A program made the position numbers and the translations under genes. The notes under the pieces were generated by a model that was not told the DNA's origin, did not search any database, and was given only the letters and a program-made list of their open reading frames with translations. Shown piece by piece: positions 14,710 through 34,806 of a stretch of 64,000 nt of DNA (its first letter is position 1; every line of letters begins with the position of its first letter). The stretch is from Eledone cirrhosa. Lineage: Eukaryota. The DNA is taken from NCBI GenBank assembly GCA_964016885.1, contig OZ024752.1:3968001-4032000 (forward strand). Direction: 5' to 3'.

Positions 14710-14750
14710 ATCGTGGTACCGGTTTCAGCATGATATGCTTTTTCAACGAT
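14710..14750 (-). ncRNA. variant hammerhead motif (UUGAAAA core)
   Basis: ATCG-TTGAAAA-AGCA.tatca.TGCT-GAAA-CCGG-TA-ccaCGAT; helix I is imperfect. Confidence 0.55.
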
Positions 14751-15970
14751 AGAAGTATCGAGTGCAGTTAAATTGCATATCTATACGAATAATAATAAAA
14801 TCTCCACACACAACCCCCTTAACAATAAGGCCTTCTAGTCCAGCTGACCTTAACAATGCACCTTACAGTAAAAGAAAATGCGGAAGACCTAACTGTGGTA
14901 TATGTATCAACCTAATAGCGGGATCGGAGTTCCACTTCAAACAAGGACAACACTTTACAGTTACATGCAATTTCATATGCGCATCAGAAAACATGATTTA
15001 TGTGTTGACTTGCTCAGGTTGTTGAGAGCACTACATAGGACAGACTAAAAACAGCCTCCGCCAACGTATGTCTGTTCATAGATCACAAATTAAAATACGG
15101 GAATACAGAAAAATAGCACTGAGTGAACACATTGCGAAACTGCGTATGTAATGAACAACCAGATTTCGGAATTTTTGCCCTCTACAAATTTAAAGACAAC
15201 GCTTCCTACATCCAGCGCATTAGCTAGGAATCACACTTTATCGCCAAATATGAACCCCTTCTAAATGCTTCCACTTCCGACTAAACTAAAGCCTCACACA
15301 CTTTAGCAATGTATCCTTCTTCAAGATTCCAGCAACCTCTGACAACTATATAATGCAGACCAAGCAACCACATAGAAAAAAGCAGCTAGTCCTAGAGGAC
15401 TTCCACGAAGATAACCGGATAAATGCTTTACATTCCCCTGAATCTGGAAGTTTCTACTGAAGATATAATGGGTATTCCAATGGCTCTGAACCCCTTTTTG
15501 CGGCAAAATTTTCCCCTAAATCTGAAATTTCTGCTAAGGATGGAATTACTATTTCAATAACTCTGAATCTTTGTGGCAGAAAAACCAAGATCAATGTTGA
15601 TGATTACTTCTAAGAAAAAATACAACGATAGGTATTTTTAGAAGCAATCAACCCACACCCCGGTTAATTCACCCGGCCTTTCAAACCAATCCAGTAGTCA
15701 AAGAGTCTCTCACAGCAGTCTTCCACCACAACTATCCCCTGCCTCTTCATCCTTCTCCTTCTCCTCTCCCCTCCTCCTTCTACCCTCTCCTCTTCATTCT
15801 CCCCCAACTGCTACGAGTCACAACCAAGTTATTAGCAGAGAAGGATGGAGTGAGAAATGAACTCTCTTCTCTGAATGAACATGTACGTGAAAATTAATTT
15901 TTCTTCCTCTTTTTATTTTTGTTTTTATTATTATCATTATCTGGACAAATATGCAACTTAACAATATTCT

Positions 15971-16154
15971 CGGTGGATTGGCAGTATCGGTAGAGGGTCG
16001 GACGCCATGCTTTCCAGCATACTTACGTCGCTTTACGATCTGAGTTCAAATCCCGCCGAGGTTGACTTTGCCTTTCATCCTTACGGGGTCGATAAAATAA
16101 AGTACCAGTAATGAACTGGGTTATTGCTGGCCTTGTGCCTAAAGTAGAAACAAA
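15971..16154 (+). mobile_element. tRNA-derived SINE, family A
   Basis: Matches the family A consensus end to end. Confidence 0.85.
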
Positions 16155-16168
16155 TATTCTGCATATCC

Positions 16169-16206
16169 GCAATTGACAATGCATATGATGCTGAAATCGG
16201 TATTGT
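16169..16206 (+). ncRNA. variant hammerhead motif (UUGACAA core)
   Basis: GCAA-TTGACAA-tGCA.tatga.TGCt-GAAA-TCGG-TA-TTGT followed by AATAAA. Confidence 0.55.
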
Positions 16207-16839
16207 AAATAAATTAATGTTTTTATATCTCACTGAAATAATCTCTTAAACATTGTCTACGGAAAAAAATATTTTTCCTTTCCACTACTTGTTTATATAT
16301 ATATATATATATATATATATATATATATATATATATATATATATATATATATATGTATATATATGGAATAGAATGAAACGAAATTTCATTTCTCACTCTT
16401 AGTACGGCACTTACTTAAATGTAAGTATGTATGTATACGTACATACATATATGTATACAGACGTACAGTAGCATGCATATATATATATATATATATATAT
16501 ATATATATATATATATATATATATATATATATATACATACAGGCACACATATATATATGCACGTATCAGTTTACCGAACATTTATTATAATGTTCGCTTT
16601 GTTCGTTTGTAAACAAACGAACAGCCTGATTTACGCCGTACAGTGTTCAGGCAACCACGTCACCTTTTTGTTCAACACTGACACAGGAACGATGTACTAG
16701 TTTCAAGGTTGTTAGCTATCGTCAGCACCGTATATATATATACATATGTATATATATGCATATATATGTATAGTGTTATAGATCAATATCCCCACAGGTA
16801 CTATGTATCCTCGGAAATATATAGGGTGTCTATGATATA

Positions 16840-31230: not shown

Positions 31231-31324
31231 CGAAGCGAGCTGGAAAGCTTTTTTCGTATTTGTTTAATTCTATTTTCTTTTGGGATGACTATGAGAGTTT
31301 GTCTAGAATTTCTTTCACCTCCTA

Positions 31325-31670
31325 ATACTACTGCCACGACGACCACCACCACTACTACTATTACCACAACCACCATTACCACTACTACTACCCCTATTAA
31401 TATTACTACTACCACCACTACTACTACAACCACCACCACTGATACTAATATTACAACAACTACTACCACTACTGCGATCACCACTACTACTACTACCACC
31501 ACTAACACTACTACTACAACTACCACCACTAATACTAATATTGCTACAACTACTATCACCACTACGACCACCACTACTACTATTACAACTACTACTACCA
31601 CCACCATTGCCACTACCACCAGCATTACCACAACTACTACCACCATCACCACCGCTACCACCTCCTCGAC
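31325..31670. repeat. degenerate (ACT/ACC)n trinucleotide repeat
   Basis: Direct reading. Confidence 0.9.
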
Positions 31671-32990
31671 CATATTTATTATATATATATATATATACAT
31701 ATATATACATAACGTATATATATAATGTATATATAATATACACACACACACACACAAACATATATATATATATATATATATATATATATATATAGAGAGA
31801 GAGAGAGAGAGAGAGAGAGAGAGAGAGAGAGAGAGAGAGAGAGAGAGAGAGAGAGAGAGATTAATAGTTGGAGTGTTGGAAGGCGCGGGGGCTAAAGACG
31901 TGCGGAGGCAGAAGTTTAGTTAGTGCATTCTTTTGTTTTCGGCTTCATCCGGTAAGGTAGGTGCGCCTTGCATTCAGTCAATAGTGAGGCTAGCGTTTGG
32001 CCGTTAATGAAACAAATATTGTTATATTTGGGGCGAGTCACATCTAAACTATAATAAAGTAAGGAACGCGGGACTGCGTACGCTTTATAATTGTTTATCC
32101 CATTAGTAAAATAAGTTGGATTACTTTGAATAAGTAATGAATGAATAATACATAATTTATCTACTAAATTTCGTGGCTGTTGATTAAATATATTTTGTTT
32201 ATTTAAAGATTCACTTCTTTAAAATTTCTGAAATGCCAACACTTCCGGTTGGCCATCGCTTAAATAAACATACTAATTTTCTGTCACTAATTTTCTCCTA
32301 ATGCAGTTTATATATAATATCGTCTTTTTTAATGTATCATGGATTACGTTACTGATTTCGTTCAATTTCTATGTATTATATATTGTCAATTACGATTTTA
32401 TTTGATGTATCATATCTACATGTATATATACCTGCGTATAATATCAATATACACACTACACATGCTAGCAGAAAACCACCCGAAGCAACAACTCTAGTCC
32501 CACACTTTTGAAGGTTTATTAAACATTTTGTGGCTCTTTTGAGCTTGCGCATTTTTCAGGTCTAGTTTAATATTTTTTTAAGGCAACGCTTGTAATAACT
32601 CTAGTTAAACATGATATATATTAATAATAAATTATCGTTGTAATGTAATTAGATTATATAATCGTTATTTTATAAATGATCTTATAAATATTATTGTAAG
32701 ATATATAAAAATATTTTCAGACTTTTAATATAAACAACTACAAAAAACAATCAATATTAAATAAATATATTTTACATAATAATTGTTATAGTTGAATTAA
32801 TAAGAATTAAATATTTCATACAAATAGTCTAACATAATAATTTAAAAAATAATGTAACATAAAACGAACAATACTATGGACAAATATAGAAGTAAATATG
32901 ATACAACCAATATTATAAGCATGTTATAACGAACTGAAAAAATAATAGTTAATATAAATTTTAAAAAATCATATATAAATTAACAATATA

Positions 32991-33161
32991 ACTTACCAAA
33001 ACGAGAAGAATATTTTGATGAAAAAACGACGAAATACAGGAGGAAGATTCGAATGCGAAACTATAAATAAACGTGCAAACAAAATGGCGGATGCTTTTGA
33101 ACAACAAATACTCTCGTTGGTTGATTAGCCAATAAGACGATGAAATTAGCCAATAAGACGA
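32991..33161 (-). promoter_or_regulatory. promoter-like module: two CCAAT boxes, YY1 motif, short first exon ending at a GTAAGT donor (possibly a DNA-transposon 5' end)
   Basis: ATTAGCCAATAAGACGA occurs twice (33124, 33145); CAAAATGGCGG at 33080-33090; minus-strand G|GTAAGT at 32997-32991. Confidence 0.35.
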
Positions 33162-34770
33162 ACAAAACATGTTTGGCAGTGATCATCACCACGGCCAGCG
33201 AAACCCCTTGAATTTTTTATTCACAAGCTACGCATATATGTCAGACACGCAGACTTAAAACCTTCTATTGTTAGTCACTGCATGTCTAACAGATTAAGCA
33301 CTTCTAAAGACACTATATATAGCATCACTCAAAAGTCATTGTGCTATCACACAGAATACACAGCAATCCTGGTGTTAGTTATAATTTTAATATCATTTTT
33401 TTATTATTTTATGTTATAGTTTTATATAATTTAATATCCAATTTTAATTTTATTTTTTAATGAATTTTGTTATATTCTCGACTTGGATTGTAATACGAGA
33501 TTGTAGGGAAACGTTCGTAGACTGAATAGTTCGTAGACTGAATAGTTCGTAGACTGGCCAAGATATTTCTATGGAATTACCAAACGAGTTTTATTTTTAA
33601 ATGTAATCCTGGAAAGAAATAATGCAATTATTAATAAGAAGAGTTGAAATTAATCCATGCTAGATTTCACAGTTCATGCATCATTCCTTCATAGTCAGCC
33701 TAAACAACATATTAGCTGACTCTCATGTGTATATATATGTGTGTGTGTGTGTGTTTCGTGCAGTGTTTACTCTGTCCTAGTGTTGGATGGTCCATGATTG
33801 TGAATACCAGTGCATTTTCGGTTCAGTTTAATTGAATGTCAATTCTGAATTCAATAGTTAAAACCAAATTTTATTTTCTTAACTATTTTATCGGGTGATT
33901 ATTTTTTGTTTAATTTTAGTTTAAATATCTCGGGTGGGAGCTACACCTGGAGCCGTGATCCAGGTATTAATTTGAATTATTAATTTAAGTTCTATTTTTT
34001 TATCCAATTTAATTTCCAATTCTCCTTTAATTGTTAAATCTAATTTTAAATTCTTCTATTGAATGGAGATATATAATGTGTTCTCTAGCTTTTTCTGGAT
34101 TGTAACGTTGTAGGAGATCTATGGATGTGAATATCATCGCATTTTGTTTTCATTTGTTTAAGTGGTAATTCTGAATTTTAATAGTTAATTCCAGATCCTG
34201 TTTCCGTCATTAATGTATAGCATGATCAGCTTTATATTAATTTTAAGGTATTCTGTGTTTTCAAAACTATATTATAATATCAATCAGGATAATGTCATAG
34301 ACTTTGTAATCACTGCGTCCGTCTCTCTCACTCTCCCCATCACTCACTATTATGAACAATTTGGAGGACAACGCTCTGGTGGTCACGCGGCCCCGGCGAG
34401 CAGAATAGAGAGAGCGTTGCCCCGGAGGGGAGAGACGCATTGGAAGAGCCATGCCAGATCGATGTTTGGGATTGGGCTTTTTTCTGGTAGATTATTTCGA
34501 CTCCAGTATTTGACAAGCCTGGTACTTATTTTATTGACCACCGTTTGTCTATCCGCCTTTATACAAGATATAAACAAAGACAAGGGCAGTCATATATATA
34601 TTTATATATATAGGTGCATATATATACAAACACTCACACATATATATATATTAGAAAGTGAGGTTTTTTTACAAAATGAAAAAAACCGAGGTGTCCTACA
34701 CTAAGGAAAAAAGATGAAATCGAAAATGCAACTGGAGTTTCTTTTTTTTTAATATTTATTTATTTGGTTC

Positions 34771-34806
34771 CTTGACAGGTTTCGCAGTTCTTCTGCTTTT
34801 CAAAAG
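34771..34806 (-). ncRNA. variant hammerhead ribozyme (UUGAAAA core), best-preserved copy
   Basis: CTT-TTGAAAA-GCAG.aagaa.CTGC-GAAA-C.ct.G-TC-AAG, followed by AATAAA and ending ~120 nt later in (TA)n. Confidence 0.7.

What the first reader, a model, noticed from the sequence alone, without database searches (positions are those of the whole stretch)
14710..34806. Recurrent hammerhead variant family with a compensated U3-A8 core (UUGANAA)
Seen: four independent loci (14710-14750 -, 16169-16206 +, 29944-29979 + with its mirror at 29814-29849 -, and 34771-34806 -) share the layout helix I-TTGA(A/C)AA-helix II-G(A/C)AA-YC(G/T)G-T(A/C)-helix I. Helix II differs yet keeps pairing (AGCA/TGCT, GCA/TGC, GCAT/ATGC, GCAG/CTGC), always with a 5-nt loop. 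Known: the hammerhead core is C3-U-G-A-N-G8-A with a Watson-Crick C3-G8 tertiary pair, the double swap U3-A8 can rescue activity, and PLE hammerheads have a tiny palindromic helix III and are thought to cleave as dimers. Inference: both positions are swapped together in every copy, so this looks like a selected variant ribozyme lineage of a Penelope-like family rather than decay. Searches requiring CUGANGA would miss it.
Basis: partly seen in the sequence, partly recalled or inferred. Interest (0 to 1): 0.85.

Follow-up and report, generated by a model that had tools for sequence, protein, structure and literature searches.

The report
Penelope-element minimal hammerheads, U3-A8 core
These motifs are tail-end copies of a hammerhead-shaped RNA motif, predicted to cut itself, carried by very abundant Penelope-like jumping genes; the swapped core pair is already published, and only one young lineage with a further core change is unusual.

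Summary
The motif is real: 5 hits in the window, all U3-A8, against a mean of 0.01 in shuffles. Genome-wide, two patterns give 929 and 19,207 matches, with 0 in reversed-pattern controls. The copies are minimal type I hammerhead motifs at the 3' ends of Neptune/Nematis-type Penelope-like elements (PLEs). The copy at 16173 lies 0.9 kb behind a GIY-YIG endonuclease remnant, and near-intact elements elsewhere carry the motif about 1 kb behind the gene. The U3-A8 swap is not new: Perreault 2011 reported it in nature, and Cervera and De la Pena 2014 found about 1,300 in Schistosoma PLEs. This scan has also met it on other DNA. Corrections: the loci are not four independent events; U3-A8 is inherited, with no convincing covariation among copies; the copy proposed for testing (34771-34806) has a broken helix III. 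One residue of interest remains: the young lineage with open reading frames also fixes C at core position 13 (4,722 versus 203 matches), which I did not find in print. Cleavage is untested.

The parts
14710..14750 (-). Copy A: minimal hammerhead motif, U3-A8, palindromic helix III, only one helix I pair next to the core; lies in a short (about 160 bp) inverted PLE 3' end, 14640-14799, ending at (TA)n
14800..15275 (+). 5'-truncated, broken PLE coding remnant: end of the RT-EN linker, C-x4-C-xx-C motif and GIY-YIG endonuclease, with stops and a frameshift
   Evidence: GIY-YIG E 0.0011, below the Pfam cut-off; 78% identical to the endonuclease of an intact copy
15276..16300 (+). 3' non-coding region of the same element, colinear with locus L013 (77%), ending at (TA)n; interrupted by another repeat at 15971-16158
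16169..16206 (+). Copy B: minimal hammerhead motif, U3-A8, 4-bp helix I, U-U at the base of helix II, one wobble change in helix III; 901 nt behind the endonuclease match
29694..30135 (.). Palindromic insertion of two 5'-truncated PLE 3' ends (406 bp, 97%) between (TA)n tracts, with a family-derived tail of about 35 bp on the right arm only
29944..29979 (+). Copy C: motif with U3-A8 and C13 (subfamily trait, not decay), 3-bp A-U helix I
29814..29849 (-). Mirror of copy C in the left arm of the palindrome
34771..34806 (-). Copy D: motif of the most abundant subfamily, with two changes private to this copy (helix III palindrome broken, cleavage base C instead of A), in a solo 3' end of about 215 bp (34620-34836) between microsatellites

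Best explanation
The five motifs are minimal type I hammerhead motifs with a U3-A8 core at the 3' ends of truncated, likely inactive copies of several related Penelope-like retrotransposon subfamilies. Shown: the core, helix II, a self-complementary 6-nt helix III segment, the position about 0.5-1.1 kb behind a C-terminal GIY-YIG endonuclease, (TA)n flanks, inverted partner copies and a one-sided tail. Inferred: in a master element's transcript two motifs would pair through the helix III palindrome and, probably slowly or with help from the element's protein, cut after GUA to trim the precursor RNA; the U-A pair would stand in for C3-G8. Because reverse transcription starts near the 3' end, the motif is copied in nearly every truncated insertion, which explains about 20,000 copies; the copies in this window would then be passive by-products.
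For: Enrichment over shuffles and reversed patterns. Copy B lies 901 nt behind an endonuclease remnant. 11 of 13 fetched long-frame elements carry the motif on the same strand downstream of an RT plus GIY-YIG frame. Four endonuclease lineages share the core while being 76-80% (B vs C), 56-80% (E vs C) and 49-52% (D vs C) identical in protein. Helix I was not part of the search patterns, yet it pairs with different sequences in different subfamilies: 3 or more pairs in 17 of 18 B rows, 12 of 13 C1, 26 of 29 C2, 80 of 86 D, 3 of 3 E2. The helix III segment self-pairs at -8.3 kcal/mol in copies A and C. The same architecture, including U3-A8, dimer-only and weak cleavage, is published; protein-assisted cleavage was shown for a lizard PLE hammerhead.
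Against: No cleavage was tested. Subfamilies A and E1 have 2 or fewer contiguous helix I pairs (44 of 45 and 13 of 13 rows) and F has none (7 of 7). The young lineage fixes C13, a position listed as invariant. A subfamily with unpaired A3 and G8 also amplified (21 of 55 matches, counted by eye). In one saturation mutagenesis only the G-C swap rescued the 3-8 pair. Most paired copies here are inverted, which cannot form an active dimer in cis. Only 4 D-type loci showed an endonuclease upstream and no A-type locus did convincingly.
Confidence: 0.8

Rival explanations
1. The motif is a hammerhead by descent but no longer cuts; it is kept as a structural signal (RNA dimerisation, protein binding or reverse-transcription start) and its catalytic core is eroding lineage by lineage.
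For: C13 fixed in a lineage whose frames are 98.3-99.96% identical; an A3-G8 subfamily; weak or absent helix I in A, E1 and F; hammerhead mutants did not impair insertion by a PLE in vitro and no reads ended at the cut site; Naiad PLEs proliferate without canonical hammerheads.
Against: U4, G5, A6, A9, G12, A14, A15.1-U16.1 and H17 fit the catalytic consensus in all six U3-A8 subfamilies examined (partly built into the search patterns); position 7, the tolerant one, is the one that varies.
Confidence: 0.15
2. An independently selected new ribozyme lineage in which positions 3 and 8 covary repeatedly.
For: Relatives with C3-G8 share flanks with subfamily A (L049, L216), so the swap happened inside this clade; double changes are slightly above chance (1 observed vs about 0.08 expected; 2 vs about 0.26; hand arithmetic).
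Against: One ancestral swap inherited by all subfamilies explains the data; the doubles are 3 copies, two of them in an older, more diverged branch and one with a rearranged flank; the variant is published for other animals.
Confidence: 0.04
3. Chance pattern in A+T-rich DNA.
For: The motif is short and the window descriptor was fitted after the fact.
Against: 0.01 expected against 5 seen; 929 and 19,207 against 0 and 0; homologous flanks across copies.
Confidence: 0.01

Closest known systems
Minimal hammerheads (min-HHRs) of metazoan PLEs, U3-A8 variant of Schistosoma mansoni Cercyon elements (Cervera and De la Pena 2014, PMC4209133)
   Same: Type I topology, U3-A8 core, short helix I, minimal palindromic helix III, location in the PLE 3' repeat, mostly solo or opposite-strand pairs, several subfamilies per genome.
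   Different: Different host and PLE clade (Neptune/Nematis-type linker); about 20,000 copies against about 1,300; a 2-nt palindromic insert in helix III; helix II of 4-5 bp; no unpaired base after A9 in subfamilies C and D; C13 in one lineage, whereas the 56 motifs of their Fig. S3 all read GAAA there.
Natural U3-A8 hammerheads (Perreault et al. 2011, PMC3088659)
   Same: Same core covariation; a U-U pair at the base of helix II is also reported as tolerated.
   Different: Those are mostly complete ribozymes with a stable helix III; the section read lists no A13C variant.
Neptune and Nematis clades of C-terminal EN+ PLEs (Craig et al. 2021, PMC8557442)
   Same: RT followed by a C-x2-5-C-xx-C linker and a GIY-YIG domain with CCHH residues; (TA)n targets; inverted 5'-truncated partner copy; one-sided tail; ORF1 separated by a frameshift is noted there as an option.
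   Different: Neptune versus Nematis was not resolved (no tree with reference elements).
Non-LTR retrozymes (bioRxiv 10.64898/2026.07.22.740005)
   Same: Type I hammerheads related to PLE terminal repeats.
   Different: Retrozymes are head-to-tail tandem units; these copies are solo or inverted 3' ends of coding elements.

Membership tests
PLE minimal hammerhead (min-HHR) | Core Y3-U4-G5-A6-N7-R8-A9 with a Watson-Crick 3-8 pair | tested here: met
   U3-A8 in 5 of 5 window hits
PLE minimal hammerhead (min-HHR) | G12-A13-A14-A15.1 and U16.1-H17 | tested here: inconclusive
   Met in copies A, B, D; not met at position 13 in copy C and its lineage
PLE minimal hammerhead (min-HHR) | Helix II hairpin | tested here: met
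   4-5 pairs in all copies, with different inner pairs by subfamily
PLE minimal hammerhead (min-HHR) | Short helix I closing the core | tested here: inconclusive
   3-4 pairs in B, C, D; 1 pair in A and mostly 1 in E1
PLE minimal hammerhead (min-HHR) | Minimal, palindromic helix III allowing a dimer | tested here: met
   Self-duplex -8.3 kcal/mol in A and C, -3.1 in B; broken (+1.6) in window copy D but intact in 80 of 86 D rows
PLE minimal hammerhead (min-HHR) | Located in the 3' repeat of a PLE | tested here: met
   Copy B in the window; 11 of 13 long-frame elements; 4 D-type loci; not shown for subfamily A
Hammerhead ribozyme (function) | Site-specific self-cleavage after NUH | not testable with these tools
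   No assay; no RNA holder listed
Neptune/Nematis-type EN+ PLE | RT with C-terminal GIY-YIG endonuclease | tested here: met
   RVT_1 at 265-452 and GIY-YIG at 691-780 of a 784-aa frame, both above the Pfam cut-offs
Neptune/Nematis-type EN+ PLE | C-x2-5-C-xx-C linker before the endonuclease | tested here: met
   Present in the window remnant and in lineages B, C, D, E (definition)
Neptune clade proper | RT phylogeny with reference Neptune elements | not tested
   No reference set was fetched
Rfam hammerhead families | Score at the curated threshold | tested here: not met
   No hammerhead family at E up to 10 over the loci; 0 gathering matches in 5 loci. A canonical-looking minimal motif at 30359 was missed too, so this reflects the models, not only the swap

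The most novel reading that the evidence does not exclude
A young PLE lineage with open RT-endonuclease frames has multiplied to more than 4,700 copies with a hammerhead that carries both U3-A8 and C13. Either this triple-changed core still cleaves, which would widen the hammerhead consensus at a position treated as invariant, or it is dead, which would make it a natural demonstration that a hammerhead-type PLE spreads without ribozyme cleavage. Sister lineages with A13 in the same genome are the built-in control.
Probability: 0.35. Interest if true: 0.5.

Novelty: new member of a known kind. Interest (0 to 1): 0.22.

Why it matters
As given, it matters little: it adds a host and a large copy number to a published variant. 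It shows that canonical-core searches undercount PLE hammerheads badly in this genome (29 canonical matches with this helix III, against 10 in the control, versus about 20,000 U3-A8). The C13 lineage bears on a stated open question, whether PLE hammerheads are needed for transposition or ride along, because it pairs a suspect core with recent amplification.

Tried and rejected
Rfam: whole-window scan gave microsatellite-driven miRNA matches and two tRNA matches, with 86 of 236 rows not shown; focused scans and a gathering-threshold scan found no hammerhead. Expression: no RNA holder listed for the 3' region of an intact copy, so no reads were laid and RNA ends could not be checked. Covariation among copies: doubles are too few and the denominators come from slightly different patterns, so I do not count them as support; no formal test was run. 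The conservation profile (core 0.91, flanks 0.33 and 0.41 across one copy each of six subfamilies) is partly circular, since copies were found by the core, and ungapped flanks understate homology; I rely on helix I pairing and protein divergence instead. Copies A and B as one template's inverted duplicate: rejected, they match only in patches of about 30 bp and each matches its own subfamily. Monomer folds do not give the three-way junction for any window copy, and the predicted dimer forms the helix III duplex only for A and C. The ORF1 frameshift in the young lineage looked new but is precedented. Literature blanks: 'hammerhead' with 'A13C' gave 0 papers; 'hammerhead, octopus, Penelope' gave nothing on these motifs; two searches gave no A13 variant report. 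Lunse et al. 2017 on PLE hammerhead variants is not held and may describe C13; part 3 of the Cervera supplement and the figures of all papers were not seen.
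Full report
Observation. A descriptor with positions 3 and 8 left free, a hairpin helix II, G-M-A-A, a 4-nt helix III segment and U-H returned exactly these five hits, all U3-A8; 200 dinucleotide shuffles in 1-kb blocks gave a mean of 0.01 and at most 1 (descriptor fitted after the fact). 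In the 3.0-Gb genome, one pattern (geometry of copies A and B) has 929 matches and another (copies C and D) 19,207, each with 0 in the reversed-pattern control. The canonical C3-G8 core with the same helix III has 29 matches against 10 in the control; canonical families with other helix III sequences exist and were not counted.

What the loci are. Window 14837-15970 is colinear with locus L013 (77%) and continues, after an inserted repeat at 15971-16158, into copy B. Its 5' part encodes a broken C-x4-C-xx-C linker and GIY-YIG endonuclease. Copy A sits on the other strand in a 160-bp piece that abuts the 5' truncation point at about 14800 and ends in (TA)n; it belongs to a different subfamily from B. 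Copy C and its mirror are the arms of a 406-bp palindrome between (TA)n tracts, with a family-derived tail on one side only. Copy D is a solo 3' end of about 215 bp. Inverted partner copies, one-sided tails and (TA)n targets are described PLE features (Craig et al. 2021, passages). So the window holds three insertions from four subfamilies, not four independent ribozyme loci.

The parent elements. A search with the endonuclease of L013 found 16,045 candidates, of which 150 were scored. [quoted passage not shown] The 11 equal-length frames are 98.3-99.96% identical, so the lineage is young. In 11 of the 13 the motif lies downstream on the same strand, mostly about 1 kb away; all 11 have C13, 10 have U3-A8 and 1 has C3-A8. 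B, E and D motifs follow their own endonucleases, 76-80%, 56-80% and 49-52% identical to that of lineage C; the D link rests on 4 loci, and subfamily A has no convincing link. The linker motif points to the Neptune or Nematis clade; I did not build a tree. The host looks like a cephalopod from the recalled appearance of its repeats; this was not tested.

Selection or decay. That U3 and A8 occur together in all copies follows from common descent. In the A/B/E geometry, 55 matches lack U3 (by eye: 15 C3-A8, 1 C3-G8, 21 A3-G8, 18 others) and 9 have U3 without A8 (4 with G8). In the C/D geometry 90 have C3, 55 have G8 and 2 have both. By hand, independence predicts about 0.08 and 0.26 doubles against 1 and 2 seen; this slight excess rests on three copies and unequal patterns, and both C/D doubles lie in an older branch. 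These are the numbers of neutral decay in dead copies. Evidence for constraint lies between lineages: helix I, which no pattern specified, pairs with different sequences in B, C, D and E2 (3 or more pairs in 17 of 18, 38 of 42, 80 of 86 and 3 of 3 rows), and the inner pairs of helix II differ too (rows from overlapping loci were not de-duplicated). Against it, A and E1 have 2 or fewer contiguous helix I pairs (44 of 45, 13 of 13), and a subfamily with unpaired A3 and G8 and no contiguous helix I also spread. Two loci with C3-G8 share flanks with subfamily A (L049, L216), so the swap arose within this group of elements, in an order I did not establish.

Mechanism. The helix III segment cannot close a hairpin usefully but is self-complementary over 6 nt: -8.3 kcal/mol in A and C, -3.1 in B, +1.6 in window copy D. 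By analogy with tested PLE motifs, two copies in one transcript, or in trans, would form a dimer and cut after GUA. Cervera and De la Pena saw no monomer cleavage and low dimer cleavage for a Schistosoma motif; a lizard PLE hammerhead cut only with the element's protein, and its mutants still inserted in vitro. U3-A8 was active in earlier in vitro work cited by Perreault, but in one saturation screen only the G-C swap rescued, so activity here cannot be assumed. Inverted pairs cannot give an active dimer in cis, and the palindrome at C would be expected to fold as a long hairpin. The window copies are probably inert.

Comparison and novelty. Perreault 2011 first reported the natural covariation. 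Earlier reports of this scan reached the same verdict on other genomes; they are not independent support. The finding is a new member of a known kind. The one feature I did not find in print is C13, fixed in the young lineage: 4,722 matches against 203 with another base, many of the latter being D-type copies. All 56 motifs in Fig. S3 read GAAA, Perreault lists A13 as consensus, and a search for A13C found nothing. That A13 changes cut activity strongly is recalled, not read. Lunse et al. 2017 was not available and may cover it.

What I saw of each paper. PMC4209133: main text parts 1-2 of 4, supplement parts 1-2 of 3 as text. PMC3088659: passages and section 8. PMC8557442, PMC11167929, PMC6765202, PMC9901934, PMC6257768, PMC2837043: passages only (for PMC9901934 also the list of supplements). 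bioRxiv 10.64898/2026.07.22.740005: part 1 of 5. No figures.

Verdict. Real, correctly recognised, already described in kind; interest 0.22. The C13 lineage is the part worth an experiment.

Noticed in passing
window 16725 (-), 30359 (-), 35592 (-), 63679 (+) (position of C3): Four further hammerhead-shaped motifs with the canonical C3-G8 core, from other repeat families; relatives of the 16725 and 63679 types occur in fetched loci.
   Followed up: partly
L119:1188-4456, L116, L120 and other young copies: An upstream frame overlaps the RT-endonuclease frame by 70 nt with a U-rich slippery-type heptamer, predicting a -1 frameshift; 89 of the first 100 listed of 396 matches keep the 6-T run. No strong hairpin follows it. 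A frameshifted ORF1 is precedented in PLEs.
   Followed up: partly
L034, L035, L037, L040, L042, L222-L235: An older subfamily with A3 and G8 (unpaired), or alternatively an A inserted between a pyrimidine at 3 and U4; no endonuclease seen within about 1.5 kb upstream.
   Followed up: partly
L107 and window 14640-15275: An A-type 3' end sits inverted just upstream of an endonuclease remnant in both places, hinting that subfamily A may be non-autonomous and attach to other lineages' insertions.
   Followed up: no
window 6425-7310 (-): Remnant of a second, divergent GIY-YIG-like PLE gene in two frames, not matched by the 784-aa protein at E 1e-5 and without a Pfam match.
   Followed up: partly
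window 15971-16158: A 188-bp dispersed repeat inserted in the PLE 3' region, with many copies in the window; SINE-like by recall.
   Followed up: no
window 21407-21559: Two tRNA-like matches in inverted orientation forming a palindrome (46.8 and 32.8 bits).
   Followed up: no
window 23200-27600: A 4.4-kb G-rich minisatellite with GC skew near 1 that keeps several frames open.
   Followed up: no
L075:1954 and 2421; L118:6448-7133: Canonical-core hammerheads in direct repeats 467 and 310 bp apart, retrozyme-like.
   Followed up: no
window 30636-31028 (-), 47260-47944, 51690-52835 (+): Other transposon-like coding remnants (helicase-like, LINE-like and transposase-like by recall), not tested.
   Followed up: no
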